A stretch of DNA of 42,327 bases from a virus. Its lineage: Duplodnaviria; Caudoviricetes. Both the position numbers and the translations under genes were made by a program. The DNA lies in IMG/VR virus record IMGVR_UViG_3300032216_001508, positions 1-42,327 of that record; one strand, given 5' to 3'. This document shows, in pieces, positions 1-13,405 of this stretch (positions are counted from its first letter, which is position 1; every line of letters starts with the position of its first letter). The notes beneath the pieces are model-generated. The model was not told the DNA's origin and did not search any database. It worked only from the letters and a program-made list of their open reading frames with translations.

Positions 1-33
<33 letters not shown>

Positions 34-38
34 CCTTC

Positions 39-265
39 CTATCGCGCGCAGTGGGCGTCGGCCATGCAGGTTTCAAAGTTTTTTCTGTGGACGCTTTTTA
101 TTTATGAGAATCTTCGCGCAGTTTCGGCGGATTGAGTTTCTATCGCGCGTTGTGGGCCTCGCGCTTGCAGGTTTCAAAGTTTTTTGCGTGAGTGCTTTTT
201 ATCTATCGCGCATTACACCCCTCGCCCTTGCAGGTTTCAAAGTTTTTTGCGTGAGTGCTTTTTAT
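39..265. repeat. Three degenerate copies of the cassette-boundary element with no gene between them
   Basis: TTGCAGGTTTCAAAGTTTTTTGCGTGAGTGCTTTTTAT is identical at 165-202 and 228-265 (63-bp period), with a degenerate copy at ~65-102. Each is preceded by a CTATCGCGC half-site. Confidence 0.9.
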
Positions 266-332
266 TTCTCGCGCGGGCCCGGGGAGAGCCGGGACTGGGG
301 CAGGTAAGGCCACCCCAGCCCCAGGCGATTAC

Positions 333-587
333 TTAGCCCTCAATGGGGGCTAGAAGGTCTTGTATGCCCTTGCGTACGTATGTCATCTGCCTAGAGGTAG
401 TCTGGCTGTACTTGTTCTCATTTATCCAGTATGCCCCGGCGTTGATGTCAATTTCAGCCATTTTAGTCCAGTACGAGTAAATCTCATAACGCCCCGCAAC
501 AATTTCGCCCCTGAGGTTAGACCCCTGAAACTCTTTTAGTGTTGCTATGTATTCTGCGCATTTGTTGTTTGCAATTCGCTTAGCCAT
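333..587 (-). CDS. Small phage early protein (KYSxTTS motif), 84 aa
   Basis: ORF with AGGAGAG RBS and its own cassette promoter. Confidence 0.8.
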   Translation of the reverse strand: MAKRIANNKCAEYIATLKEFQGSNLRGEIVAGRYEIYSYWTKMAEIDINAGAYWINENKYSQTTSRQMTYVRKGIQDLLAPIEG

Positions 588-677
588 TTTGAAACTCTCC
601 TAAATCTTGGTAGCAGGCGTTTCCCACTAACAACAGATTACCACAGTGCCTATCGCGCGTGCGCGATTAGGGGGGTT

Positions 678-792
678 TAAGGATTTCAGGGTTTTGACGC
701 TTACAACCGCCTGCCCTGAAATCCACCCGGGGTTATCCTGACCCCACCAGCAATACGGTTTGCCCTACTTACTTCGGTCTGCCGTATCTATA
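678..792 (-). ncRNA. Putative small structured RNA expressed from a cassette promoter
   Basis: Full promoter (812-827 plus TACACT), no RBS or ORF; stems at 753-758/782-787 and 681-691/714-724. Confidence 0.45.
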
Positions 793-876
793 ACCAGTGT
801 ACCATAGTCCCTATCGCGCGCGCGATAATGACCCGCTCGCAGTTTTCAGGTTTTTCTGCGAGGGGCATTTTTATAC

Positions 877-1029
877 CTATGCCCTTTCCACCACGAATAC
901 ATCAGAGCCGTTTCCTGCTTCTCGCCAGTCCATCATCTTGTAGATGAACTTGATGCCCTGCTTAGTGTTTGCTGAATCTACTTCCCACTGGAACTTTTCC
1001 CCAGTCCTTGTATTCCGTAACTGCCACAT
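877..1029 (-). CDS. Hypothetical micro-protein, 50 aa (MWQLRNTRTGEKF...), not in ORF track
   Basis: Manual translation; AGGAGAG RBS; fills its cassette. Confidence 0.8.
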   Translation of the reverse strand: MWQLRNTRTGEKFQWEVDSANTKQGIKFIYKMMDWREAGNGSDVFVVERA

Positions 1030-1181
1030 AATGCTCTCCTGTCTTTGGGGCTTTTCCCCGACATAAAAAGATTACCACGCTGCCTATCGCGCGCGCGATA
1101 ATTGACTGCCGCGAGGTTTCAAATAATCGCGCGTGTAACCTCAATAATCCGAGGTTTCAATGTTTTTTGCGAGGGAGGTTT

Positions 1182-1394
1182 TTATACCTCGGCTACCTCG
1201 AACTGTGCAACCTTCTGAGCCTGAACCTTCTTGGATAGTTCACTGTAACTCTTAGCCAGTCGGTCTTGTGAGTCAATGCCTTCCTTTAGGTACTCAATGG
1301 CAAACACTACTCCCCTTGATGAAAGTGCTGTGCTAATCATTCTGGCTTCATCTCGTGAAACCTGAATAGTTACTAGGTCTAATTCCTTTTGCAT
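1182..1394 (-). CDS. Hypothetical protein, 70 aa (MQKELDL...)
   Basis: AGGAGAG RBS before ATG 1394; cassette promoter. Confidence 0.8.
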   Translation of the reverse strand: MQKELDLVTIQVSRDEARMISTALSSRGVVFAIEYLKEGIDSQDRLAKSYSELSKKVQAQKVAQFEVAEV

Positions 1395-1555
1395 ACTGCT
1401 CTCCTGTTCTTGTGGGGCTTTTCCCACTACCAATACGATACCACATCTCGTATCGCGCGTGCGCGATAACCAGAGGCGGCGGATTTCAAATTATCGCGCA
1501 CATAACCCAGAAACTCCTGGGTTTTTAATGTTTTTTCTGTGAGGACTAACTATCT

Positions 1556-1684
1556 CTAGTGTCCTACGTAGTTCCTCATCTGCTCGGCGTAGTCTTTCCA
1601 GCCAAGTGCCTGTGCTTCACACTCTGCACACTGTCCTTCGTCATGGGTGTTGCCATTGAAACAGAATACGACTTCTTCTTCCAT
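1556..1684 (-). CDS. Hypothetical acidic micro-protein, 42 aa (MEEEVVFCFNG...; CxxC)
   Basis: Manual translation; AGGAGAG RBS. Confidence 0.75.
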   Translation of the reverse strand: MEEEVVFCFNGNTHDEGQCAECEAQALGWKDYAEQMRNYVGH

Positions 1685-1834
1685 ACTGCTCTCCTTAGTC
1701 TTGGTGTCTTAGTCCGGGGGTTTCCCCCCGAACTAAAACTTGTTTCACTTCAGGGTTTCTCTCCCTCTTGTGTAATACCAGTGTATCACTTGGTGTATCG
1801 CGCGCGCGATGATAACCCCTTTCGGGGATTTCAA

Positions 1835-1981
1835 TTATTGTGCCAATAGAACTTTCTCATACAGTTGGTCAAGCACTGCTCTTTGCGTTGGTGTCATCTC
1901 TGTCAGTCCACCAATGTAGTTGCTTCTTATGCTGTCCATGTAATCAAACAGTGCCTTCTGTGCTCTTTCGAGTTCAGTCAT
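1835..1981 (-). CDS. Hypothetical helical micro-protein, 48 aa (MTELERAQK...)
   Basis: Manual translation; AGGAG RBS; overlaps the end of the upstream gene. Confidence 0.7.
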   Translation of the reverse strand: MTELERAQKALFDYMDSIRSNYIGGLTEMTPTQRAVLDQLYEKVLLAQ

Positions 1982-2114
1982 CACTTTCTCCTACCCATGA
2001 CTCAAGCCATACAATGAGTTCGCCTATGCGCTTCTTGGCTTCCTCTGGCTTGCTTGTGTCTATCTGTGCTAGGTATTCTCTAGCCTTAGTGACTACGTTG
2101 GTCAGTTCTTCCAT
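1974..2114 (-). CDS. Hypothetical micro-protein, 46 aa (MEELTNVV...)
   Basis: Manual translation; TAATG stop/start coupling. Confidence 0.7.
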   Translation of the reverse strand: MEELTNVVTKAREYLAQIDTSKPEEAKKRIGELIVWLESWVGESDD

Positions 2115-2314
2115 TACCTTGCCTTCCAAGTCAAGATACCATGCTTAGCCGTCTGCATAGCGTGTTGTGCTACTTGCATAGCGTGGTCGCAGGCTTGTAC
2201 TCCGTACTGCTTCACACACTCTTTTCCCCCGACCGCAAAATTGTGAACCGCCTGTGCGTAGGTCAAACTGCATGAGTAGTAGAGGTGTGCGTGGTGACAG
2301 ATGTGGTCTCTCAT
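2114..2314 (-). CDS. Hypothetical His/Cys-rich protein, 66 aa
   Basis: ORF; TAATG coupling at both ends. Confidence 0.7.
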   Translation of the reverse strand: MRDHICHHAHLYYSCSLTYAQAVHNFAVGGKECVKQYGVQACDHAMQVAQHAMQTAKHGILTWKAR

Positions 2315-2535
2315 TACTTACGACCTCGCATTACAATCGTGTAGCCCAAGTTGATACCAGCCAAGAAACCGATAACACTAGGGATAATGCTTTCGACCCA
2401 TTGACGGACAACCGAGATGTCATTGAATGGGATAAGGCTCTGTGTCCAAAAGAATACAATCATTCCGCTTAGAACTCCCAGTGTCCAAACAAAATAGCGT
2501 TCGGCTGGTGTTCCCTTGTTGCTTCGTCTGCTCAT
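2314..2535 (-). CDS. Small membrane protein (two hydrophobic segments), 73 aa
   Basis: ORF, RBS, hydrophobic stretches. Confidence 0.75.
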   Translation of the reverse strand: MSRRSNKGTPAERYFVWTLGVLSGMIVFFWTQSLIPFNDISVVRQWVESIIPSVIGFLAGINLGYTIVMRGRK

Positions 2536-2797
2536 ACTGCTCTCCTTACTAAGTGGCTTGTTCCACTACTTCAAGTGTACACGACGCCTATCGCGCATGC
2601 GCGATGTATGTCAATCCTAGATTTCAAAATATCGCGCGTAATACCCCGTCACCCCCAGGGTTTGATTTTTTTTGTGTGGGGGCTTTTTATCTTTGATGAG
2701 AGCCACCTACGATTCGATTCTCGCCACTCAAATAAGAAAGTAATACCCTGGTATCCCCCCAAACCCGCAATACGCATCGCGCGGGGGGAGAGCGGGA

Positions 2798-2819
2798 GTC
2801 GGTGGGTAAGGCCACCGAC
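2798..2819 (-). terminator. GC-rich hairpin downstream of the DUF3846 gene
   Basis: GTCGGTGG-gtaagg-CCACCGAC; related hairpin at 295-318. Confidence 0.5.
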
Positions 2820-2835
2820 CCCCATGGGGTAAAAC

Positions 2836-3162
2836 TTATGCTGGCTGGTATTCGAGTAAGTACTTAACTTGCTCTTCAGATAGTCCGAGAGTGTTGCCCT
2901 CGTCATCTGTGCCACTGGTGAATACTGCGTTACCAACAATGATGTCAGTCTCGCCGTAAATGTCTTCCCATAGCCCTGTGGCTGTGGTGTTGAAAGGCAG
3001 GCTTTCCAACTTGCCTTCCTCGTTGCACCAGAGGTCTAGTTCTCCGAGTGGCACACACTGAACCCACCCTTCGACCGCTTCTTTGATTGTCTCGTAGCAG
3101 GTCTCGTTGGTGAACTCCACGACCTCTTTAAGGCCGTTTGTCTTGATGATGACCGCCTTCAT
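2836..3162 (-). CDS. DUF3846-like protein
   Basis: Pattern IKEAVEGWVQ...LWCNEEGKL..LP.N..AT...DIIVG. Confidence 0.8.
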   Translation of the reverse strand: MKAVIIKTNGLKEVVEFTNETCYETIKEAVEGWVQCVPLGELDLWCNEEGKLESLPFNTTATGLWEDIYGETDIIVGNAVFTSGTDDEGNTLGLSEEQVKYLLEYQPA

Positions 3163-3344
3163 TAGCGAACCACCGTAACTGTGTTTCCACGACGCTCAGG
3201 AACGTAGGTTGTCCAACGTAACTTGAGGTTGCTGGTGAGTAGTAGCAGGCGTGCTGTGCCAGTTGGGTTGACCTCAACTTTGATAATACGACCTGTAACT
3301 CCTGACTTCTGTGTTGTGTACTTCTGACCGACTTTGACTGTCAT
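3162..3344 (-). CDS. Small basic beta-rich protein, 60 aa (MTVKVGQKY...)
   Basis: AAAGGA RBS; cassette promoter. Confidence 0.75.
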   Translation of the reverse strand: MTVKVGQKYTTQKSGVTGRIIKVEVNPTGTARLLLLTSNLKLRWTTYVPERRGNTVTVVR

Positions 3345-3458
3345 GTCATTCCTTTCTCTCCGTACCGCTTGTCGGTACATAACCAGTGTATCATTGTGGC
3401 ATCGCGCGTGCGCGATATAACGGCAGCAGGATTTCTAAGAAACCCTGCCACCAGATTT

Positions 3459-3677
3459 TTACGCCTTGGCCAGTTGCTTTAACTTCTCGGCTCCGGTGAA
3501 GTACGCTTGGAGTGCTTCGTGAAGAAACATCTCCAACTGGTCACCGTCTCGGAAAAACATTGTAATTCCGTCTAGACGTAATACGACTGTGTCCTGCTTG
3601 TTGTCGTATAGAAAGTGAACTGCCTCAAACAACTTGTCGCCTTCTTTGACGTCTACATCAGTAGTAATTGTGGCCAC
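3459..3677 (-). CDS. Hypothetical protein, 72 aa
   Basis: ORF with AGGAGAG RBS, GTG start. Confidence 0.8.
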   Translation of the reverse strand: MATITTDVDVKEGDKLFEAVHFLYDNKQDTVVLRLDGITMFFRDGDQLEMFLHEALQAYFTGAEKLKQLAKA

Positions 3678-3839
3678 TGTGCTCTCCTCTGTTCTGTACT
3701 GCTTGGTGGCATTTCCACCTATAAATAATTTACCATAGTTGCTATCGCGCGCGCGATGTAATCGGCGGCCGGGGATTCTAAAAAACTATCGCGCGTGTAA
3801 CCCGTTGACTTCCGGGTTTTAATGTTTTGTCTGTGGCGA

Positions 3840-4721
3840 CTATTTATTTTCTTTGCCGAGAATGTAATCGCTGGCACTCTGCGCTCTGGCCACTGCCTTC
3901 ACCAACATCTTTGGTTCATTCTTGAGTGCCTTAAGCCAACTGGCAATGTAACTGGCCGAGTTGTCAATTGTGCTGGGGGCGATACCAGTCTCTGACGATA
4001 AGAACGCACTGGTGAACTCTGCGACTAATTCCTCTTCACTGTAGAGTTCACTGCCGAAGTAGTGGTTCTCAATTACGCCTTCACGATTGAGACGCTTCTC
4101 GTGTCCTGTGCTGTGACCCATCTCGTGGAATAGGGTTGCATAGAACGCTTCGTCACTAGTGAATGTCTCTGGCGTTGGAACCGTAATTCTGTCCTTGCTG
4201 GGTGAGTAGAACGCTCTATCTCCTGCATAGGTGATTGTGAGGTCTTGCTCTCGCTTGTAGTATCCGTCTACGACCTTCTGTGCCGATAGAATGACTTCTG
4301 CGTGTGCTCTGGCCTTAGGCTTCTCGTACGCTGGTGCTTCGGTTTCCCATTCGACCTGCTCTGCATTGAATACGGTGAAGTAGGTGACGATTACTGCCTT
4401 GCGTTCGACTTCTGTCTCTCCTTCGGTGACCTTGGTGTCAATGGACTTGTACAGAACTACTGGTGAACCCTTTTCGCCTTTGCGGACACTGCCACCCATG
4501 GCTTTGACCTGCTTGAACGTTCCCCACCATGGTGACTCGAACTCTTTGGCCATAGCGGTGAATGAGAGTAGCCAGTGATTAATCCCGGTGTATGGCTTCT
4601 TGGTACTGAGTGACCTTGGTACGTATCCGCTGGACACCCACTCTTTTCTCCAAGGTGCTGTGCCCTGTTCTAGTTGGTCAATGATTGTCTGTGCTACTAC
4701 TGCGTATGCATTGGTTGTCAT
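3840..4721 (-). CDS. ardC: ArdC-family antirestriction protein (ssDNA-binding domain plus zincin-like domain)
   Basis: PW..W...P.S..T.KPYTGIN, WGTFKQ...GG.VRKGEKG, HEMGH, YS.EELVAE motifs. Confidence 0.9.
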   Translation of the reverse strand: MTTNAYAVVAQTIIDQLEQGTAPWRKEWVSSGYVPRSLSTKKPYTGINHWLLSFTAMAKEFESPWWGTFKQVKAMGGSVRKGEKGSPVVLYKSIDTKVTEGETEVERKAVIVTYFTVFNAEQVEWETEAPAYEKPKARAHAEVILSAQKVVDGYYKREQDLTITYAGDRAFYSPSKDRITVPTPETFTSDEAFYATLFHEMGHSTGHEKRLNREGVIENHYFGSELYSEEELVAEFTSAFLSSETGIAPSTIDNSASYIASWLKALKNEPKMLVKAVARAQSASDYILGKENK

Positions 4722-4825
4722 GTGCTCTCCTTCGGCTTGTCCGATACCATCAGTATAGCAGGGCTGCCTATCGCGCGCGCGATGTATGCGCAGCAGAGGG
4801 TTTTAATTTTTCTGCTGGGCGTGGA

Positions 4826-5227
4826 TTACCACCAACTGTCGTAATAGATTTCCATGTCTTGGGCAATAGCCTTCATAGCCTTGTCTATGAACTCCAGTGT
4901 TTCGGTGTCGTGGTCAGGGTCGCTTGTTCCAAAGAAGAAACCAACGGTCTGTGGAAGTCTGTTGTTCATCACTGCCTGCTTCAAGTCTTTGAGGTCTTGA
5001 AAGGTTAGACGTACTGGCGAGCAGTTAAATGTTCCTTCCCCGCCCTTTTTTTCGTACAGTGCTTCCATGTATCCCTGAAGGTTGGCATGCTTACGCCATT
5101 GAGCAAGCATAAACATACTTTGCTTATGTTCATCTTGATTAATTTTCTCAGAGTCATTCCAGTAGATGTAGAGGTCTGTGTTCTGTGGGTGAGGCATTAC
5201 TGCGTATGCGTATTGGTCGAGACCCAT
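4826..5227 (-). CDS. Phage hypothetical protein (MGLDQYA...WRKH..L.G.M...YYDSWW)
   Basis: ORF, RBS; pattern recalled from other phage proteins, function unknown. Confidence 0.8.
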   Translation of the reverse strand: MGLDQYAYAVMPHPQNTDLYIYWNDSEKINQDEHKQSMFMLAQWRKHANLQGYMEALYEKKGGEGTFNCSPVRLTFQDLKDLKQAVMNNRLPQTVGFFFGTSDPDHDTETLEFIDKAMKAIAQDMEIYYDSWW

Positions 5228-5389
5228 GTTTTCTCCTTGTTGCTGTGGCTTGTTCCACTACAAACACTTTACCACGCCGCCTATCGCGCGTGCGCGATGT
5301 TGCGGCCCAGAAGAATTAAAAAAGTTATCGCGCATGGCAGCCGCATCAGCCGCAGTTTTCATAGTTTTCTGCGTGAGGGCTTTTTATCT

Positions 5390-5923
5390 TTACAAGTGAG
5401 TGAAGTAACCAGTGAGGTCTGCTTCGATGACGGTCTGCTCGTTAGCCAGTTGTATGTCATCTTCCAGCAGTCGTGTTGTATCAACCACGTACTCATTTTC
5501 GTTTCGGCGGTCAAACTTACCCAGTACCAAGATACTTGGGATAGTTATCTCATAGACGTTGCTAGGCCACATGGTCTTGAACCGACCAGCGAACCACTTG
5601 GCTTTGCTGTAACTGCTAGTCCAAGACATACCTTCTTTGTGGTCATCAGCACAACCACGATAGAGAGTAATGAACTCTGACAGTGTGTCGTAACTAATCA
5701 ACTCACCCTCGTCACCAAGAATGAACTGGCAGTCCGTTGCCTTGTCAAAGAGTATCTGCCATACCTCGTTGTCGGCTTGGAACGCAGGCCATTCACACAT
5801 TGTCCAAGAGTCTGCTAAGCCTTTAGCAATCTCGGCTTGGTCTAATTGACCTATGTTATTTACAAGCACCCTAAGCATGTCATTACGACCTACCCTTGCA
5901 CTTACCTCTGCCCACGTAGCCAT
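5390..5923 (-). CDS. Putative R-S-E type ADP-ribosyltransferase-fold protein
   Basis: TLYRG, SWTSS and ENEYVV in canonical order. Confidence 0.5.
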   Translation of the reverse strand: MATWAEVSARVGRNDMLRVLVNNIGQLDQAEIAKGLADSWTMCEWPAFQADNEVWQILFDKATDCQFILGDEGELISYDTLSEFITLYRGCADDHKEGMSWTSSYSKAKWFAGRFKTMWPSNVYEITIPSILVLGKFDRRNENEYVVDTTRLLEDDIQLANEQTVIEADLTGYFTHL

Positions 5924-6102
5924 TAGAAGCCCGCCGATGTCATGGCTTGGATAAGTGTCTCGATGTCGTCATTCAACATCTCTGTCATTGTGTGACCTAT
6001 GCAGTTGTTACGGCGTTCAACAAGGTCATCTATGGCTTTCAAGAAGTCAGCCTTAGTCCACTTGCTTACATCTACCCACTCTTTAATAAATCCTGTACGC
6101 AT
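5923..6102 (-). CDS. Hypothetical protein, 59 aa (MRTGFIKE...)
   Basis: GGGAG RBS; coupled to the downstream gene. Confidence 0.75.
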   Translation of the reverse strand: MRTGFIKEWVDVSKWTKADFLKAIDDLVERRNNCIGHTMTEMLNDDIETLIQAMTSAGF

Positions 6103-6188
6103 GTTCTCCCCTTTTCGTTGTGGCTTATCCACTACCAATACATTACCACACTGCACATCGCGCGTGCGCGATACAACCCTTTCGGGTT

Positions 6189-6383
6189 TTAGTTAATTTT
6201 GTTATAGCAAAGATTACACTCAACAGTTTCTTCACCGCCACCGCCTAGCCATGAGCAAGCGATAGAGTTCATTACTTCTTTAGCCATTTTGCCAAAGTGT
6301 CTAATGAAACAAGTAGGGCAGTAAAGAATTGGTGTTCCGTGTGCTGCGGTTTCGTACACCGCAAATCCAGTTACCCTAGTCAT
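6189..6383 (-). CDS. Small putative Zn-binding protein (CPTC...CNLC), 64 aa
   Basis: ORF; two CxxC motifs. Confidence 0.7.
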   Translation of the reverse strand: MTRVTGFAVYETAAHGTPILYCPTCFIRHFGKMAKEVMNSIACSWLGGGGEETVECNLCYNKIN

Positions 6384-6516
6384 AATACCCAAACTCTTGA
6401 AACACTGCTGTACGAGCGTAGTCAAGTTGTCTGTTTAGTTCAGCAATCTCCTCATCAGTCAAGTTGTTGTCAGTGTCAAACCACTCAACTAATTTCTCTC
6501 TAGTTACTAACTCCAT
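6376..6516 (-). CDS. Acidic micro-protein, 46 aa (MELVTREKL...)
   Basis: Manual translation; TAATG coupling. Confidence 0.7.
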   Translation of the reverse strand: MELVTREKLVEWFDTDNNLTDEEIAELNRQLDYARTAVFQEFGYYD

Positions 6517-6842
6517 TAGAACTCACCTTCAATCTTCTCAAGTATCTCACTAAGGTCGGACTTCTTTGCCCGGCGTTCTAGTTCTGCCATCTGCTCCGGT
6601 GTCATGGCTTCTAACTTCTCCATGCCGTCTTGAACGACTTCTTGCAAGCCTTGTGAATACTCAAGGAACTTGCCAACTAGTTTTTTGTACTTCTCACTAA
6701 TGAATTGCAGTTCAAGGTCATTGACATCTTCTTGCCAAGACTCATAGACACTGCCAGCCATGTTCCAAACTGCACAGGCAACCATTTCCATTTCTTCTTG
6801 GTCGAAAGTTGGTCCTGCAACGAGTTCCGGTTCTTCTGCCAT
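6516..6842 (-). CDS. Highly acidic helical protein, 108 aa
   Basis: GGGAG RBS before MAEEPEL. Confidence 0.8.
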   Translation of the reverse strand: MAEEPELVAGPTFDQEEMEMVACAVWNMAGSVYESWQEDVNDLELQFISEKYKKLVGKFLEYSQGLQEVVQDGMEKLEAMTPEQMAELERRAKKSDLSEILEKIEGEF

Positions 6843-6980
6843 ACTGCTCCCTTTTACTTTTACTTCCACCGGCTTATCCGGCTACCACCAGTGTACCAAA
6901 TCGGCTATCGCGCACGCGCGCGATGGCGGGTTTGCGGTTTTTATAGTTTTTTGTGTGGCGACTTTTTATCTTTAATAGAC

Positions 6981-7023
6981 ACCACCGGTCAGCGTTCGGG
7001 GGGAATTGAACGCCGACCAGTGG
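6981..7023 (-). terminator. Long hairpin after the VWA gene
   Basis: ACCACcGGTCaGCGTTC...GAACGCcGACCaGTGGT. Confidence 0.5.
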
Positions 7024-7048
7024 TAGGCAAGGGGTTAGCCTTTACTGT

Positions 7049-8464
7049 CTAAACTCTTTCCAACTTTCCTTGCGTACCGCCTTGTGCCTTAGTCAGATAG
7101 ATACCTACGAACCCTCTGACCTTGCTCTTGCTCGCTCTCGGTGCTTTCAACATCTCCACCGCTTCGTCAGTGTCGGGGGTGACTAGAACCTTGTGCTTCT
7201 TAATCAACTTGGCACAGGCTTCTGCACCGGCTTCGTACACTTGGTCACCGCTACCAGTAACCATTCCGTCAGTGACCCAAATAACCGGCTCTGAACCTCT
7301 ACGCTTGCCAATAGCCCAGTCAAGTGCCGGGCCATCTACGCCGTTGCCATAGCCGTATGGAATACCATTAAGGCTACTAACACGCTTACCTCGGTCTGCA
7401 AGTATCCAAGCATTAGGGTGCTTTGACTTACTACGATTAGCCGAGTAGCCCATAATCAACGCACCGGGGGCAGTGTCTACCATTTTCTCTATCTGTTCGA
7501 TAGATAGACTCATAGAACCCGATAGGTCAAGCAACACAATACCGCCACTGTTGCGTGGCTTCTGACTAAAGATACGCTTTTCGGGGTCGGTCAGTAGTCG
7601 GCTAGGGTAGGCAATTCGCTTGCCGATAGGACTAGCCTTCTTACGTCTAGCCAAGTGACCCTTGACCTGCTTATCCAACTTAACCACGTTACTGATAATC
7701 AACTTTGCCCAAGCGTTGTTGCCGGTAGGCATGTCGATACCACTGTTATTGAAGTCGGGTGTACTACCACTGTTTTGCTTTAGGTAGCCACTGATAATTC
7801 CGGCTATGTTGCCGGTGTAACTAGAGAAACCGTATGGCAACTGTCCTACTGTGTTGCCATTGTCGTCTTGGATAGACTGCGCACTGGCGTATGCCAAGTT
7901 GTTTGCACTGTTGCTCCTAATGACCTTAGTGACTTCCTTCTCCATCTCACGTAGGTCAGTAGCCCATTCCTTATTGACACCACGAACGCCGGTAATGAAC
8001 TGACGGAACGCCTTAGTACCGATTAACGCTCCACCGCCTTTAATCATCATGTCATAGGCTTTCTCTGAACCTTCTTTTGCCAGTCGCTTGCCAGTCTCCT
8101 TCTCACTGCCGTCAAGCAGTAGGTCGGTGTTGTAGCCCAACTTCTTAGAGACTGCATTGACACGCACCTCTTCGGCACTCATAATCACGTCAGCGTCAAG
8201 CCCATTGTTTTCAGCCCATGCTTGAACTGCCACTGGGTCTATTGGACTAATCTTGGCGTGGATAAGTTCGTGAGTACGAACCGCTTGTGCCACGTCATCA
8301 TTTATCAGTGGAACTTGAATGTGCTTATCGGTGAAGTTAGTCCAAGCCTGACCTCGCTCCGTAAATCCTTCTGTGACTGTCCAGCGTTCGCTGTTACCGT
8401 CAGGTCGGCTACCTACGATAATTTCAGGATAGACGACTACTTCTGCCTTCTTAGCCTTAGCCAT
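7049..8464 (-). CDS. HExxH metallopeptidase-like plus VWA domain protein, 471 aa
   Basis: HELIH; DLSGSM MIDAS motif; VIWVTDG. Confidence 0.75.
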   Translation of the reverse strand: MAKAKKAEVVVYPEIIVGSRPDGNSERWTVTEGFTERGQAWTNFTDKHIQVPLINDDVAQAVRTHELIHAKISPIDPVAVQAWAENNGLDADVIMSAEEVRVNAVSKKLGYNTDLLLDGSEKETGKRLAKEGSEKAYDMMIKGGGALIGTKAFRQFITGVRGVNKEWATDLREMEKEVTKVIRSNSANNLAYASAQSIQDDNGNTVGQLPYGFSSYTGNIAGIISGYLKQNSGSTPDFNNSGIDMPTGNNAWAKLIISNVVKLDKQVKGHLARRKKASPIGKRIAYPSRLLTDPEKRIFSQKPRNSGGIVLLDLSGSMSLSIEQIEKMVDTAPGALIMGYSANRSKSKHPNAWILADRGKRVSSLNGIPYGYGNGVDGPALDWAIGKRRGSEPVIWVTDGMVTGSGDQVYEAGAEACAKLIKKHKVLVTPDTDEAVEMLKAPRASKSKVRGFVGIYLTKAQGGTQGKLERV

Positions 8465-8616
8465 TGTAAAACCCCTTTTACTATTGCAGTACGCTTGTCG
8501 TACTACTGAATAAATACTACCACAACGGGCTATCGCGCGCGCGATATGACCTTCCTTAAAAAATCTAAGGAAAGCATGGGGGCAGAGAATTAACCCTGCC
8601 CCCACTAGGGTAAAAC

Positions 8617-9372
8617 TTACAGTGAGAGTGATGACGGACTAGAGACTGAACCTAGTCGCCCAATTCTTACTGCTTCGATAATTGCTTCTGCTCGTACCTT
8701 GCCAAACGTCATCTCGGCAGAGCGTTCCTCTTGCATGCCGTTGGTAATCAACTGCTGAAACGCATAGAAGGCTCGCAGTGATACTCGGCGTTCCGGTTCG
8801 GCAGAGATAACTGCTGTTGCAACTGTACGTAGGTGTTCCGGCAACTTAGCCAACGCTTCGGGGTGCGGAGCGTTAATCTCAATAGCCACCGGGAAACGGT
8901 CACGAAGTGCAATAGGCAAGTCGTCAGGGTGTTCTATGTTGCTAGTAATCACCGCAGAGAAACCTGACTTAGGTGTAACTACTTCACCGGTGTCGGGGTT
9001 CTGCCAACTAGAACTGGCAACGCTGTCGAGGAAGTTAAGTAACTGTCCTTGAACGTCACCACTAGCCTTGTCACCTTCGTCTACTACCAAGCGACCACCT
9101 GCTCGCCAAGCCTGAACTGCTTTGCCTTCGGAGAATGTCCAGTTGTCGCCGTTAGGCTTCCACGTACCTTCTATGTCGGCAGAGGTCATGTCCTCGGTGC
9201 AAGTCAGACGGAATACACCGTTACCAACGTTACCGTAGGTCAGACCACCAAACGTCTTACCAGTTCCCGGCGCACCGTAAAGTACAACTCGGTCAATACC
9301 ACACTGCAATACGTCATGGAAGTCTTGCCAGCATTTAGCCATTGGCAATCCTGTGTTGTTAATGTAACTCAT
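8617..9372 (-). CDS. MoxR/CbbQ-like AAA+ ATPase
   Basis: GAPGTGKT Walker A, LVVDE Walker B, ALRDRF arginine finger, SLR sensor. Confidence 0.85.
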   Translation of the reverse strand: MSYINNTGLPMAKCWQDFHDVLQCGIDRVVLYGAPGTGKTFGGLTYGNVGNGVFRLTCTEDMTSADIEGTWKPNGDNWTFSEGKAVQAWRAGGRLVVDEGDKASGDVQGQLLNFLDSVASSSWQNPDTGEVVTPKSGFSAVITSNIEHPDDLPIALRDRFPVAIEINAPHPEALAKLPEHLRTVATAVISAEPERRVSLRAFYAFQQLITNGMQEERSAEMTFGKVRAEAIIEAVRIGRLGSVSSPSSLSL

Positions 9373-9542
9373 ACTTTTTACCCTTTCGTAAAAGTGTCAC
9401 TTCCGGCTTGTCCGGAGAGCAACGTAAAAACATTACCACAAATCCTATCGCGCGCGCGATTATAAAAACCTATAAATTAAAACAACCTATAGGTAAAGCC
9501 CTCGCAGTTTTCATAGTTTTTTGCGAGGAGTTTTTTTATTTA

Positions 9543-9791
9543 CTATCCCACGTAGCGGACATACAACTTAAATCCGCCACCCTTAGTGATGTATCGGCGT
9601 TCCCACTCTTCACCCTTAAATACCTTAGGGGCAACCTGTGGTTTGCCTTCGTTAATAATCAAAGCCCATTCGCCGGGCTTGGCCATAATTTCGTTGGCCA
9701 TGGCCTGCCACTTTGTTGCACCGTTATGTGGTGGTGCTTCCCATCTGATGCTTTGCATAACTATCCTTTCATAGTTGTTACTGTTATACAC
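9543..9791 (-). CDS. Hypothetical protein (PGEWA...LYVRY)
   Basis: ORF within a cassette; start uncertain. Confidence 0.7.
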   Translation of the reverse strand: MYNSNNYERIVMQSIRWEAPPHNGATKWQAMANEIMAKPGEWALIINEGKPQVAPKVFKGEEWERRYITKGGGFKLYVRYVG

Positions 9792-9808
9792 CTTAGCAGA
9801 ACTAACGA

Positions 9809-10090
9809 CTACTCGTCAATTCCATGAAACATGGTCTCTGCAGCCATTCTTAAAGTATTGCTGATGTTAGGACTCATAATCACTGTGCTCTCTTTAACTA
9901 CGTAAGAAACGCCACCAATGTTACTGCCTTCACCATTAATCTCAAAGACCCAAGACCATAGACTTTCACCCTTATCTAACTTGTTATTCAGTTCCTTTAA
10001 CTGAGACATAGGTAGCGTACTGGTATCAAACAGTACCATGTTATCTGCTTGTCCGAAGTTGCCTGCTTTATCTAAGTACACTAATGCCAT
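9809..10090 (-). CDS. Hypothetical protein, 93 aa (MALVYLDK...)
   Basis: AAGGA RBS; first gene after the rightmost cassette promoter. Confidence 0.7.
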   Translation of the reverse strand: MALVYLDKAGNFGQADNMVLFDTSTLPMSQLKELNNKLDKGESLWSWVFEINGEGSNIGGVSYVVKESTVIMSPNISNTLRMAAETMFHGIDE

Positions 10091-10497
10091 TGTTGTTGCT
10101 TCCTTTTCTATTGCTCCCAGAACTTGCTCCCAGAAGGCGTACCGAAATTGTATCATACCTGGTCATCGCGCCCGCGCGATTAGAGGAAATCAAAAACCCC
10201 TAAAAATCTCGCGCATTTTATTGACCACAAACCGTCCTGGTTTTCAATTAGTTTTGTGTGTGAGAATTTTATATTTGAATTTTCGCGCGGGTCATGCGCT
10301 TTTTAGTGCTAGAATAAACCTGCGATTGGTACAAATTCTGGCAGTTTTCATATAATTCTTTGTGGGATAATTATATTATTAATTGATTATGTACCGTTAG
10401 TGGTTTAAAGGGTACCCTATACGCGTGCGAAGGGACGTTTATTGGTGTGAAAGCATCATTTCTCTCTCAAAACCCTTTAATAATCGGTTTCTAATAC

Positions 10498-10638
10498 TTA
10501 GAACTCATCCTGTTTGTAGTCTTTAAGTGCACTAGTGAACTGTTTATACAAATAATTCATGTAATTAGCCAGTTCAGTCTTGTCCATCTTCTCTAAGTCC
10601 TCTTGATTAAGACCGTATCTGCGTGGTTCTTCTATCAT
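10498..10638 (-). CDS. Hypothetical micro-protein, 46 aa (MIEEPRRY...)
   Basis: Manual translation. Confidence 0.55.
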   Translation of the reverse strand: MIEEPRRYGLNQEDLEKMDKTELANYMNYLYKQFTSALKDYKQDEF

Positions 10639-10779
10639 AACTGACCACTTTCAATAATCGCTGCTAGGCAACAGATAAACACTATCAAAATAGCAACCTT
10701 CATAGGCCAGTAATCCCTGCTAACAATGCCAAAGTTATCGTTACTAGGCTTACTACTATTGCCCATACTATTTCTCGCA

Positions 10780-11013
10780 TTATTCCGCCTGTTCTTTCAA
10801 GAACTCATTAATCAACCGTACTACGTCATTAATGGCCCAGTTATACACTATCCCATTGTTAGTAGTACCACTTGGCCATGTTTGTCCATCTTCGAAGGGG
10901 AACCTTAGTTCTCTTACCTTAGTCTTTAATGTCTCTATCTTTGATAAAGGTATGAGTGTTCCGGGGTCTTCTGGATTCTTCCCCCCCGAAAAATTTTGGA
11001 CGGACTCTTCCAT
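10780..11013 (-). CDS. Hypothetical protein, 77 aa
   Basis: ORF, TAATG coupling. Confidence 0.7.
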   Translation of the reverse strand: MEESVQNFSGGKNPEDPGTLIPLSKIETLKTKVRELRFPFEDGQTWPSGTTNNGIVYNWAINDVVRLINEFLKEQAE

Positions 11014-11237
11014 TACTCTTCTGATTCAGCCTCTACGTCATCCCAGTTCTGGTCTTGCTCTGCGAACTGGCCGCCTAGGTCAGATAGTAGTTCAGACACG
11101 ATTGGGATATCGGCAATGTCGGCACCCTTTTCTACGGCATTTTCCATGCCCTCAAGGATTGCTGCAACCATTCCCATAACCATCATTGATTGGCCACGGG
11201 TGATTGTGTAGGTAAATTCGTCTAGTGGGTTTGACAT
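11013..11237 (-). CDS. Acidic hypothetical protein, 74 aa
   Basis: ORF, TAATG coupling. Confidence 0.7.
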   Translation of the reverse strand: MSNPLDEFTYTITRGQSMMVMGMVAAILEGMENAVEKGADIADIPIVSELLSDLGGQFAEQDQNWDDVEAESEE

Positions 11238-11416
11238 TAGTTTAGTCCTGTCTGTTGTCGGATTAATTCTTCTGATTTATTTAGTAATTCCATTGATTCT
11301 AGCAACCCCGGTTCCCCGTATTTAACGTAGGACTCATGGGTTAGGTACTGCGCAATACTGATAGCACCAAGAACGGCGTTTAATTCTTCTCCATTGAGTT
11401 CTAAACTATGGTTCAT
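11237..11416 (-). CDS. Hypothetical protein, 59 aa (MNHSLELNGEEL...)
   Basis: Manual translation; AGGGA RBS. Confidence 0.65.
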   Translation of the reverse strand: MNHSLELNGEELNAVLGAISIAQYLTHESYVKYGEPGLLESMELLNKSEELIRQQTGLN

Positions 11417-11624
11417 TACTTCCCTTTCTTACAAGTGCAATTTCCACCGCAAGGGCAGTCCTTTTTGGGGGCTGTGGACTTTTGGTAGATACCATCTTTA
11501 ACGCCTTGACTAAACATGTGGATAAAGAAACCCACTGCCATGAAGAATAAAGCCGGTAATAGGAATACTAATAAAACGTGCATTTTCTGCTCTTTTCTGG
11601 GGTTCTTTTCCCCCCGCCAAAAAA

Positions 11625-11653
11625 TAGTACACCCTACATCTGGGGGCTGTCAA
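11625..11653 (-). promoter_or_regulatory. Canonical sigma70-type promoter
   Basis: TTGACA-N17-TACTAT on the minus strand. Confidence 0.65.
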
Positions 11654-11736
11654 GTACCTCATGCTGTTTGCAAAAAGGCGAGTACCATGTGCTTTGGAGG
11701 TAAAAAAGTAAAACCCTTTAATATTAGGCTTTTCAA

Positions 11737-11782
11737 AGTACCCAAAAGTACCTTTTGGAGTACCTTTTGGGGGGTACTTTTG
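11737..11782. repeat. Clustered AGTACC direct and inverted repeats
   Basis: AGTACCTTTTGG x2 (11747-11770); CAAAAGTACC/GGTACTTTTG inverted pair. Confidence 0.6.
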
Positions 11783-11783
11783 A

Positions 11784-11939
11784 CTACTGATTCTTAGAGA
11801 TAATCTCTAGTGCGTCAGCAATGCCCTGAGCATAGCCATTGTCATAGGGGTTATTTCCATTATGAGCCAATGACTTGTTCAAGGCTTCTGACAACCTTGA
11901 AAGCACTGATTGCTTTGCTGTATCTATTTTCTTTCCCAT
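11784..11939 (-). CDS. Hypothetical protein, 51 aa (MGKKIDTAK...)
   Basis: Manual translation; AGGAG RBS. Confidence 0.55.
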   Translation of the reverse strand: MGKKIDTAKQSVLSRLSEALNKSLAHNGNNPYDNGYAQGIADALEIISKNQ

Positions 11940-12517
11940 TTTACTATCTCCTTTATTGGTGTTATTTTTAATGCTGGTACTGCGACCCTGTTTATATCGT
12001 TGTTATATGGTTTTCCATTAACCCATAAATTTTTTGCATATCCCCCACCTAAAATTCTAACGGTAGTTTGCTCTTTGAGATTGTTGTTTGAACAATAGTT
12101 GCATACACAACCATATTTTATGGCCAATTTGCTTTCAACCCATAAAACCAACCGATTTAATTCAACGTCTTTACGGTCAACTGGCATAGAAAAACTGCTT
12201 CTTCGCCATTTGATTTCTAGTTCCGTTGACAACCATAATCCATCTGGCAAGCCGCTATATTTGCCATGGTCTGCCATATCCCAGACGCCAGCGTAACAAT
12301 AAGCGCCCAATATCTTGCAAGCACCTATTTCTGCTGCCGCCGCATGAACATTTGCTAAAACGTTGTCTGACATAAGGTTTTCTGCTTTGTAAGATACCCT
12401 GTCTTGCTTTGTAAGGTTTTGATTGTTTCTGCCCACCCCAATTTGATATGCGTTGTCATCCTCCCATGGCAGGAGTGTCGTAAATAGCGCATTTTCCTGG
12501 AGTTGGTGAACATCCAT
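11924..12517 (-). CDS. Hypothetical protein, possible PD-(D/E)xK nuclease fold
   Basis: AAAE...PDG...EIK arrangement. Confidence 0.45.
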   Translation of the reverse strand: MDVHQLQENALFTTLLPWEDDNAYQIGVGRNNQNLTKQDRVSYKAENLMSDNVLANVHAAAAEIGACKILGAYCYAGVWDMADHGKYSGLPDGLWLSTELEIKWRRSSFSMPVDRKDVELNRLVLWVESKLAIKYGCVCNYCSNNNLKEQTTVRILGGGYAKNLWVNGKPYNNDINRVAVPALKITPIKEIVKWERK

Positions 12518-12577
12518 TTGTACATGGTATCAGACTTTTTGTGGTAATGTTTAATTACACCTGAAAGAGGAAAAATA

Positions 12578-12916
12578 ATGATACTTGTCGACAAAATGTT
12601 GGCCGAAATGACTGATATTGAGCGCGAGTTTCTTGTACCGTCTAATTACGAACCTTTGCGTGGTTATTTCTTTGAAATGGGGTCTGTAGCGCGAAACGGT
12701 AATTGGATGGGATATGTTGTTTTGCCCGATGACACAGAAGTTAGAGTTGTTTGCTTTGAAGACACCGGCAAAATGAGATATGACAAGGAAGAGTCGTATT
12801 ACAAACTAGTCGAGGACGCTAATCAGGCTTTTCCAATGGATAGTTGCGCCATAGATACTATGACCGCATTGCTTATGTTGGTAGATTCAAACGATTGGGA
12901 CGATTGGGAGGATTAA
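12578..12916 (+). CDS. Acidic hypothetical protein
   Basis: ORF with GAGGA RBS. Confidence 0.7.
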   Translation: MILVDKMLAEMTDIEREFLVPSNYEPLRGYFFEMGSVARNGNWMGYVVLPDDTEVRVVCFEDTGKMRYDKEESYYKLVEDANQAFPMDSCAIDTMTALLMLVDSNDWDDWED

Positions 12917-13405
12917 GTGAACTATTTTTACGAACCACAAAAGTACACAATTGCTCTTTATGAGAAACGTGGAAGGTCTTACCGAGAAGTAGGTATTTTC
13001 TTTGAAAGTGAAGTTACGCCCGAAGAAGCCTTTGATTTGTTCCGCGAAATGTCCAATGCTATCCCTACATGGCAAGCCGTCGAGCATGCTTTGGAAGTAA
13101 AAGATACGGAAAATGTGATTCCAGAGTACGAAGTGCGTCTAATTGACCAACGACGAGTTTTGGCTACCGTTCTTTGGGACGAAAAAACCATGACAGAGAT
13201 TCTTGAAAATACATCTGCCAAAACCTTGCATAAAATGACTATAGAAGTAGAACTATTTGAAGACGAGCAAGAAGAAGACCCTTACGAATGGGACTGGAAC
13301 GAATTGATAATTACAGAAAGAATTAACGTAGTTGAGATTAATCCCCCATTGTCTGCTATGGTTAAGGAAGATATCTCAGAAGGGGAGAAGAATGAAGGAA
13401 TTTAA
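12917..13405 (+). CDS. Acidic hypothetical protein
   Basis: ORF, GGAGG RBS, GTG start. Confidence 0.7.
   Translation: MNYFYEPQKYTIALYEKRGRSYREVGIFFESEVTPEEAFDLFREMSNAIPTWQAVEHALEVKDTENVIPEYEVRLIDQRRVLATVLWDEKTMTEILENTSAKTLHKMTIEVELFEDEQEEDPYEWDWNELIITERINVVEINPPLSAMVKEDISEGEKNEGI

What the first reader, a model, noticed from the sequence alone, without database searches (positions are those of the whole stretch)
611..9416. Conserved 5' leader hairpin with covarying stem and ANAAG-type loop in most cassette transcripts
Seen on the minus strand, between -10 and RBS: UAGUGGG-AAACG-CCUGCUA (611-629), GGGG-AAAAG-CCCC (1047-1059), GUGGG-AAAAGC-CCCAC (1412-1427), AGUGG-AACAAG-CCACU (2552-2567), GUACCG-ACAAG-CGGUAC (3362-3378), GGUGG-AAAUG-CCACC (3705-3719), UCGG-ACAAG-CCGA (4732-4744), GUGG-AACAAG-CCAC (5245-5258), GUGG-AUAAG-CCAC (6120-6132), CCGG-AUAAG-CCGG (6869-6881), AGUACG-ACAAG-CGUACU (8488-8504) and UCCGG-ACAAG-CCGGA (9402-9416). 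Stem sequences differ but pairing is kept, including G-U pairs, while the loop and G-C closing pair are conserved. Inference: a selected RNA element, such as a boxB-like protein-binding or antitermination site, or a 5' tag protecting phage mRNAs from host or phage-induced decay.
Basis: partly seen in the sequence, partly recalled or inferred. Interest (0 to 1): 0.82.

Follow-up and report, generated by a model that had tools for sequence, protein, structure and literature searches.

The report
5'-end hairpins on phage early mRNAs
All 14 promoter-led gene units in the early region of this uncultured phage are predicted to start their mRNA with a small hairpin, which likely shields the message from the host's decay enzymes as known 5' stem-loops do, while the loop sequence shared by 12 of them is a lineage trait whose purpose is unproven.

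Summary
All 12 hairpins are present as written. They belong to 15 promoter cassettes (palindrome, -10 box, leader) of a likely actinobacterial phage.

In the 12 motif hairpins the stem starts at predicted +1 or +2, whatever its length, and all 14 gene-bearing cassettes fold a 5' hairpin. Stems covary (83% of cells paired against 56% shuffled), and G-U pairs outnumber A-C 13 to 2, so selection acts on the RNA. Two related phages carry the same G-ANANG-C loop.

Other relatives keep the 5' hairpin with other loops or have unstructured leaders. Across viral contigs, GNANA and GNRA loops occur in this position as often as ANANG. boxB and ANTAR features were tested and not met.

Best reading (0.55): a 5'-end shield against RppH and RNase J/E, like mycobacterial DrrS. 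The loop is conserved within the lineage, probably for structure. A protein-read tag is possible (0.2). Transcription starts and half-lives are untested, and no RNA data were available. The scan noted similar leader hairpins on other DNA (e1-4735360, e1-6427680). Verdict: new variant of a known kind.

The parts
611..628 (-). 5'-terminal hairpin, loop AAACG; predicted +1 = 628 (629 can add one pair); palindrome 652-667, -10 TAATCT 635-640
   Evidence: the variable loop position 4 (619) differs in three of four related strains
1041..1062 (-). 5'-terminal hairpin, core GGGG-AAAAG-CCCC 1047-1059, extended to predicted +1 (1062) across a bulge; palindrome 1086-1099
1412..1427 (-). hairpin GUGGG-AAAAG(C)-CCCAC, starts at +2 (predicted +1 = 1428); palindrome 1452-1467
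1746..1772 (-).
   Evidence: -7.5 kcal/mol, z -2.5
2552..2567 (-). hairpin AGUGG-AACAAG-CCACU, starts at predicted +1 (2567); palindrome 2590-2605
   Evidence: mis-parsed this -10
3362..3378 (-). hairpin GUACCG-ACAAG-CGGUAC, starts at predicted +1 (3378); palindrome 3401-3416
   Evidence: no difference listed in four related strains
3705..3719 (-). hairpin GGUGG-AAAUG-CCACC, starts at +2; palindrome 3744-3757
   Evidence: no difference listed in four related strains
4732..4744 (-). hairpin UCGG-ACAAG-CCGA, starts at +2; leader of the ArdC-like gene 3840-4721; palindrome 4770-4783
5245..5258 (-). hairpin GUGG-AACAAG-CCAC, starts at +2; palindrome 5283-5298
6120..6132 (-). hairpin GUGG-AUAAG-CCAC, starts at +2; palindrome 6157-6172
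6868..6882 (-). hairpin GCCGG-AUAAG-CCGGU, starts at +2; palindrome 6907-6924
8486..8506 (-). 8-bp hairpin, loop ACAAG, starts at +2; leader of the 471-aa gene ending at 7049; palindrome 8532-8545
   Evidence: z -4.5
9396..9423 (-). 11-bp hairpin with one bulge, loop ACAAG, starts at predicted +1 (9423); leader of the AAA ATPase gene 8617-9372; palindrome 9447-9460
   Evidence: z -3.1
10113..10138 (-). weak 5' hairpin, loop GCAAG with A-U closing, starts at +3 (predicted +1 = 10140); palindrome 10165-10180
   Evidence: z -0.23, so doubtful
668..826 (-). 15th cassette: palindrome 813-826, -10 TACACT 796-801, predicted +1 = 789, no ORF; candidate small RNA of about 120 nt without the motif hairpin

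Best explanation
Each early gene unit of this phage carries a short GC-rich hairpin starting at the predicted first or second base of its mRNA, which likely hides the 5' end from the host's RNA pyrophosphohydrolase and from the 5'-end-dependent RNases J and E, so the messages would last longer. Shown: the hairpins, their covariation, the strand bias, and their fixed distance from the -10 box. Inferred: the start sites (7th base after the -10 hexamer), the actinobacterial host, and the stabilising effect (from DrrS and RppH work). The G-ANANG-C loop is held by selection within this lineage, most likely as a preferred loop fold in which loop positions 1 and 5 form a pair slot. It is not needed for the shield, because relatives use other loops. 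The A-rich linker after the hairpin leaves the ribosome-binding site open.
For: (1) Stem start tracks the -10 box, not the loop. In 38 motif hairpins the stem starts at +1 in 24, +2 in 9 and +3 in 5 (SD 0.72), while the loop start ranges +5 to +14 (SD 1.95). With arms swapped between cassettes, stems start by +2 in only 55% of window cases against 12 of 12 native (5 of 10000 permutations); G001 70% against 37% (61 of 10000); G002 88% against 60% (29 of 10000). (2) Without motif selection, a 5' hairpin forms in 14 of 14 window cassettes, 11 of 12 in G001, 17 of 19 in G002, 10 of 19 in G003 and 3 of 6 in G004, against 26% of shuffles. Folding energy is deepest in the window that starts at +1 in all five genomes. 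(3) Interior G-U 13 against A-C 2. (4) The predicted +1 is a purine in 14 of 14, 12 of 12 and 18 of 19 cassettes. (5) Leaders of the AAA orthologue at 55% identity or more keep a 5' hairpin with changed stems and loops wherever my script found an extended -10 (12 of 15 rows). (6) Precedent: the DrrS 5-bp stem starts at A1, one extra A has little effect, two or more destabilise, and the stem raises a reporter three-fold (PMC5360333). Mycobacterial RppH acts less on structured 5' ends (PMC12988327). (7) Five actinobacterial genomes picked from the RecA hit list all carry RNase J and RNase E/G family genes. (8) Loop as a pair slot: in G001, 4 of 10 copies put U or C at position 1, where it can pair with the last G; in G002, 3 of 16 put G there.
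Against: No start site or half-life was measured. The pairing boundary at +1 is gradual: with six upstream bases added, pairing probability is 0.81-0.94 at +2 to +5, 0.63 at +1, 0.56 at -1 and 0.35-0.38 at -2 to -4. Four window hairpins are weak (-4.0 to -5.2 kcal/mol). Many relatives do without: 3 hairpins in 43 leaders of L035/L113/L070/L122/L069, and most AAA leaders at or below about 52% identity are unstructured and A/C-rich. A plain shield does not explain the loop: unpaired A1 (28 of 32) and A3 (31 of 32) are fixed while the outer stem is randomised, and measured pentaloop data favour C-G closing by 1.0 kcal/mol, not the G-C seen here (PMC9074901). The host is only weakly placed (RecA hits 55-60%).
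Confidence: 0.55

Rival explanations
1. The hairpin is a tag: a phage or host protein reads G-ANANG-C and protects or promotes translation of tagged early mRNAs while untagged host mRNAs decay.
For: Without motif selection the loop motif is in 12 of 14, 6 of 11 and 15 of 17 hairpins of the window, G001 and G002, against 1.5% of shuffled hairpins. A1 and A3 carry 1.3 and 1.7 bits while neighbouring outer-stem columns carry about 0-0.3. The three phages are only 65-76% identical in the AAA protein. G-C closing has no thermodynamic bonus. A-first pentaloops also dominate in the AAA neighbours L013-15/L083-97 (20 of 25, C-G closed), which were chosen without regard to loops.
Against: G003 has 10 5' hairpins and none with the motif. 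G001 tolerates U/C at loop position 1 and other loop lengths. Across viral contigs the same stem after an extended -10, followed by SD and ORF, has ANANG in 8 of 66 hits outside the clade, GNANA in 9 of 58 and GNRA in 7 of 84 (Fisher p 0.6 and 0.6). No RNase, ANTAR or other RNA-binding Pfam family was found in 115 of 123 called ORFs of the complete G002, though most had no match at all. No excess in 151 Actinomycetota genomes.
Confidence: 0.2
2. The hairpin acts during transcription, for example by helping escape from strong promoters, setting a pause, or blocking backtracking of the young transcript.
For: Fixed register to the -10 box. Purine-leaning first 12 bases (0.67-0.74 in the three motif phages) and G on the 5' arm in 129 of 170 G-C pairs.
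Against: A 13-28 nt hairpin can only close after the polymerase has cleared the promoter (inference from established polymerase geometry, recalled). G003 and G004 have similar purine content (0.66, 0.62) without the motif.
Confidence: 0.1
3. The hairpin only insulates translation: it ties up the G-rich 5' end so the linker and ribosome-binding site stay single-stranded.
For: Mean predicted pairing of the SD is 0.20 with the hairpin intact; the linker is A-rich (115 of 265 bases).
Against: Removing the 5' arm raises SD pairing only to 0.25, and by more than 0.1 in 11 of 37. This job does not need the stem to begin at +1.
Confidence: 0.07
4. boxB-like antitermination site.
For: A phage hairpin with a purine-rich pentaloop near an early promoter; loop ACAAG resembles P22 GACAA by eye.
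Against: boxB loops are GNRA-like, G first and A last (PMC12550061); these are A first and G last. The units are short, each with its own promoter, and the scan listed no terminator between hairpin and start codon.
Confidence: 0.04
5. A DNA operator (GG-N5-CC half-sites) or a neutral relic of cassette copying, not a selected RNA fold.
For: Cassettes are clearly copied and shuffled: shared upstream modules and gene losses between cassettes in related strains. Copies in one genome are not independent.
Against: Native arms fold at -7.1 against -1.6 kcal/mol for swapped arms (0 of 10000). Stems contain bulges and strand-biased G-U pairs. Loop position relative to the promoter varies by 9 bases.
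Confidence: 0.04

Closest known systems
5'-terminal stem-loop stabilisers: M. tuberculosis DrrS/MTS1338 (PMC5360333; passages and section 12 read) and the E. coli case of Emory et al. 1992, seen only as cited there (ompA name recalled)
   Same: Short GC-rich stem starting at the first base, 0-1 unpaired 5' nucleotides, actinobacterial setting with RNase E and J.
   Different: Here it is repeated on 14 phage mRNAs with diverse stems and a shared pentaloop; start sites and effect are predicted, not measured.
PeSL cassettes of T4-like phages (PMC4122927, first third read; PMC2839356, search listing only)
   Same: Repeated promoter-plus-stem-loop units in a variable early region; genes are gained and lost between units.
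   Different: PeSL stem-loops are described as terminators in promoter-terminator composites. This hairpin lies in the transcript just after the -10 box and has no U tail.
Lambdoid boxB, P22 GACAA pentaloop (PMC12550061, passages)
   Same: Phage RNA hairpin with a purine-rich 5-nt loop near early promoters.
   Different: Loop order is reversed (A first, G last), no terminator listed in the leaders, and no N-like partner identified.
ANTAR target RNAs of actinobacteria (PMC8164766, passages)
   Same: Short stems, loop begins with A, same likely host phylum.
   Different: ANTAR targets are dual stems with hexaloops, A1 and G4; these are single, mostly 5-nt loops with A3/G5.

Membership tests
5'-terminal stem-loop stabiliser (DrrS type) | Stem with fewer than two unpaired bases at the transcript 5' end | tested here: met
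   33 of 38 motif stems start at predicted +1/+2; 12 of 12 in the window. Rests on predicted start sites.
5'-terminal stem-loop stabiliser (DrrS type) | Structure on the RNA strand kept by compensatory change | tested here: met
5'-terminal stem-loop stabiliser (DrrS type) | Start site mapped at the stem | not testable with these tools
   no RNA holder listed
5'-terminal stem-loop stabiliser (DrrS type) | Longer half-life lost on adding unpaired 5' bases | not testable with these tools
   needs a bench assay
5'-terminal stem-loop stabiliser (DrrS type) | Host has 5'-end-dependent decay enzymes | tested here: inconclusive
   RNase J and RNase E/G families in 5 of 5 actinobacterial genomes taken from the RecA hit list; true host unknown; RppH/MutT4 not searched
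boxB (lambda/P22) | GNRA-like loop, G first and A last | tested here: not met
   loops are A-first, G-last in 12 of 12 window motif copies; definition from PMC12550061
boxB (lambda/P22) | Downstream terminator to be read through | tested here: inconclusive
   none listed between hairpin and start codon; 11 sites against 10.2 in shuffles; Rho-dependent sites not testable; U-less 3' hairpins follow several genes
boxB (lambda/P22) | boxA and an N-like protein | not tested
   no dedicated search; Pfam scans showed no such family
ANTAR target RNA | Dual stem-loops with hexaloops, A1 and G4 | tested here: not met
   single hairpin; 10 of 12 loops are 5 nt; the two 6-nt loops have A at position 4
PeSL | Stem-loop is a terminator in a promoter-terminator composite | tested here: not met
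   hairpin lies 7-8 nt after the -10 box with a purine-rich tail
PeSL | Gene gain and loss at the cassettes | tested here: inconclusive
   strain contigs skip 1831-2119, 1833-2113 and 1831-2314; breakpoints not analysed
Any Rfam 15 family | Covariance-model match | tested here: not met
   0 matches at E up to 5 in 1-13000
Described structural pentaloop families (PMC9830547) | Sequence fits one of ten clusters | tested here: inconclusive
   none of the ten cluster names seen in the passages fits G-ANANG-C; the table was cut and the 62 unclustered sequences were not seen

The most novel reading that the evidence does not exclude
The G-ANANG-C hairpin is a sequence-read 'self' cap: a phage-made or co-opted host factor binds it at the 5' end of early mRNAs and spares them while host mRNAs are degraded. 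It would be a bacterial-virus counterpart of a cap-binding system, with lineage-specific loop codes (G-ANANG-C here, C-ANNNN-G in the neighbouring clade).
Probability: 0.13. Interest if true: 0.8.

Novelty: new variant of a known kind. Interest (0 to 1): 0.42.

Why it matters
If right, it shows phages building 5'-end protection into nearly every early mRNA. It gives a natural panel of about 40 stem variants for testing the 5'-end rules of actinobacterial RppH and RNase J/E, and compact promoter-leader parts for expression in actinobacteria. Sister lineages split between hairpin and unstructured leaders, which makes host decay machinery a testable driver of leader design. It becomes surprising only if the loop proves to be read by a protein.

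Tried and rejected
Rfam: no match.

Cultured relatives: none for the AAA protein. The helicase hits Arthrobacter phages at 27-32%. DNA searches with G007, G009 and G010 cassette regions gave nothing useful. In stretches of two cultured Arthrobacter phages, Laroye (35 of 60 kb) and Ottawa (33.5 of 63.5 kb), my scan found one candidate leader each, neither with the motif; this is inconclusive.

Expression data: no RNA holder listed. The runs laid were DNA contigs and cannot show starts.

A universal 'A-first pentaloop' rule: suggested by G007 (11 of 13 hairpins), G010 (8 of 15) and G009 (3 of 4) against about 6% in shuffles. Rejected as unproven. Those genomes were picked by one seed match, copies in a genome share descent, and the GNANA and GNRA control scans gave equal rates. 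The ANANG scan stopped at 120 of about 150 stretches.

Host chromosomes: the CCGG-stem pattern gave 139 matches in 151 Actinomycetota genomes against about 223 for the backwards control, with about 7 A-first pentaloops (hand counts). Two of these genomes, G101 and G107, are unpublished and add one match each, neither A-first. This tests one stem class only.

SD-sequestering switch: not supported.

AAA tree (42 of 79 rows, those at 50.5% identity or more): unresolved; the three motif phages are not shown to be one clade.

CsrA site: rejected from the recalled consensus (GGA inside the loop); here GG is in the stem.

Literature: searches listed no paper describing this element. The library lacks most subscription papers, and no supplements were read.


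Full report
Setting. The window is a linear virus record, 48% complete. It encodes WhiB, RecA, a helicase and collagen-repeat proteins. The 16 best RecA hits (55-60% identity) are all Actinomycetota, and the helicase is closest to Arthrobacter phages at 27-32%. An actinobacterial host is therefore likely but not shown. Bases 300-10200 hold small minus-strand genes. Among 22 ORFs scanned there, only DUF3846, an ArdC-like protein and an AAA ATPase have Pfam matches. Fifteen palindromes ATCGCGC(N0-4)GCGCGAT occur, all in this region. Each is followed after 10-12 nt by a TAnnnT hexamer with TG upstream. Fourteen lead to an SD and a start codon within 55 nt; the one with +1 at 789 does not.

Observation. 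All 12 hairpins are as described and far above chance: 14 motif hairpins on the minus strand of 1-10500 against a shuffled mean of 1.1. The loop consensus is ANANG, with two 6-nt AACAAG loops.

Position. I placed +1 at the 7th base after the hexamer. This base is A or G in 14 of 14 cassettes. On that basis five motif stems start at +1 and seven at +2, while the loop starts anywhere from +6 to +13. Long stems reach +1 through bulges and G-U pairs. The two gene-bearing cassettes without the motif also fold at the 5' end, one of them weakly. The folds were started at the predicted +1, so I controlled by swapping arms between cassettes: stems then start by +2 in 55% of cases (5 of 10000 permutations reach 12 of 12), and mean energy goes from -7.1 to -1.6 kcal/mol. 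With six upstream bases added, pairing falls gradually rather than sharply across +1.

Relatives. Searches with the AAA protein gave 74 viral and 80 metagenome loci. G001 (76% identity) and the complete G002 (65%) have the same palindrome cassettes. A G-N4-6G-C hairpin is present in 10 of 12 G001 and 16 of 20 G002 cassettes; one G002 row was then dropped as a false promoter. In 32 five-nt-loop copies, 83% of cells pair against 56% in shuffles, and 73 cells change on both sides against 29. Interior G-U pairs outnumber A-C oppositions 13 to 2, which points to the transcript strand. Four related strain assemblies at roughly 90% identity show no listed change in the hairpins at 3362 and 3705; three of them change loop position 4 at 619 (only 40 of about 1230 differences were shown).

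The loop. Without motif selection it appears in 12 of 14, 6 of 11 and 15 of 17 hairpins of the window, G001 and G002, against 1.5% of shuffled hairpins. Unpaired A1 (28 of 32) and A3 (31 of 32) stay fixed while the outer stem, which needs double changes, is randomised. I infer selection on the loop within this lineage, not just descent. Measured pentaloop energies give a bonus to C-G closing only and a penalty to an A-A first mismatch (PMC9074901, parts 1-2 of 5 read, tables not shown). That could favour G5 opposite A1 but does not explain G-C closing. In G001, position 1 is U or C in 4 of 10 copies, where it can pair with the last G, which suits a structural pair slot better than protein contact to A1.

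Limits of the loop. G003 has 10 5' hairpins in 19 cassettes and none with the motif. The neighbours L013-15/L083-97 use C-ANNNN-G (20 of 25), L023 and L032 use mixed loops, and another group has 3 hairpins in 43 leaders. The AAA tree does not resolve the three motif phages as a clade. A scan for the CCGG-stem version found it before SD and ORF in eight distinct hits outside the clade. Those checked are distant, sharing 0-8 weak tblastn hits with window or G002 proteins, and several carry many 5' hairpins with A-first loops. Control scans removed the apparent generality: ANANG 8 of 66, GNANA 9 of 58, GNRA 7 of 84, reverse-complement loop 2 of 59. So 5' leader hairpins with purine-rich loops are common in phages, and the loop code is lineage-level. 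Host chromosomes show no excess for this stem class (hand counts; includes unpublished G101 and G107 with one match each).

Mechanism. In mycobacteria a 5-bp GC-rich stem starting at the first base makes DrrS very stable. One added A has little effect, two or more destabilise, and the stem raises a reporter three-fold (PMC5360333, passages and section 12). [quoted passage not shown] The 0-1 unpaired bases seen here match that rule. Five actinobacterial genomes from the RecA hit list all carry RNase J and RNase E/G family genes. Several genes also end in strong U-less hairpins, so both ends may be guarded. I put the shield reading at 0.55, a protein-read tag at 0.2, a transcription role at 0.1, translation insulation at 0.07, boxB at 0.04 and DNA operator or relic at 0.04.

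Comparison with known systems. It works like a 5'-terminal stem-loop stabiliser. The structural features are met on predicted starts, and the functional ones are untested. It is not boxB (PMC12550061, passages), not an ANTAR target (PMC8164766, passages), not a PeSL terminator (PMC4122927, first third; PMC2839356, listing only) and not in Rfam. PMC12591593 held none of the boxB terms I searched. PMC9830547 (passages, table cut) names no fitting family. Six paper searches listed no description of this element; supplements were not read. Earlier notes of this scan describe similar leader hairpins in other genomes. I did not test them, and my reading was stated before I saw them.

Verdict. The feature is real and well supported as RNA structure. 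Its likeliest job is of a known kind, used here across a whole early region with an unexplained lineage-specific loop. New variant of a known kind; interest 0.42. The tag reading would deserve 0.8 if shown.

Noticed in passing
window 668-789 (-); L009 about 16800 (+): ORF-less cassette transcript of about 120 nt (-44.7 kcal/mol, z -1.9). Its long hairpin shares a 24-nt apical sequence with an element in G001 while the lower stems differ yet pair. The exact motif was found in 4 viral records, all of these two lineages. Candidate phage small RNA.
   Followed up: partly
window 652-10180, 15 sites; G001-G004: The palindrome ATCGCGC(N0-4)GCGCGAT sits where a -35 box would be. Its distance to the -10 hexamer is lineage-specific: 10-12 nt in the window, mostly 13-15 in G001, 14-16 in G002 and about 24-27 in many G003 cassettes. 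Likely a protein-binding site; these phages encode WhiB (three in G002). Absent from the L013-15 clade, which often has TTGAC-type -35 boxes.
   Followed up: partly
window 60-267, 833-876, 1144-1187, 2649-2692, 3806-3849, 5346-5389, 6928-6971, 9498-9541, 10231-10274: A 44-nt A-tract module repeated 11 times upstream of promoters, three in tandem at the contig end. At some copies a hairpin plus T-run on the plus strand reads as an antisense terminator.
   Followed up: no
window just after the stops at 333, 2836, 3459, 7049, 8617 (-): Strong GC-rich 3' hairpins without U tails (-29 to -36 kcal/mol per 70 nt), possibly terminators or barriers to 3' exonucleases.
   Followed up: partly
window 1831-2314, 2547-2588, 3492-3586: Related strains lack or replace small genes and leader segments here, consistent with cassette shuffling.
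   Followed up: no
L035, L070, L113, L122 and AAA leaders at or below about 52% identity: Sister lineages use G-poor, A/C-rich unstructured leaders behind the same type of promoter: an opposite design that may reflect different hosts.
   Followed up: partly
G010 (L460-L464), G007 (L457-L459), G009 (L470-L471): Distant 65-70% GC phages with 5-18 promoter-hairpin-SD leaders each; G010 repeats one stem-loop unit nearly unchanged. G007 also carries QueC, GTP cyclohydrolase I and radical SAM genes, suggesting deazaguanine DNA modification.
   Followed up: partly
window 7049-9372 (-): AAA ATPase followed by a 471-aa gene with no Pfam match; a similar-sized gene follows the ATPase in the closest relatives. 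The second gene looks vWA-like by eye (recalled motif, untested).
   Followed up: no
window 1-27: The record begins with a run of C, probably an assembly artefact, so further cassettes may be missing.
   Followed up: no
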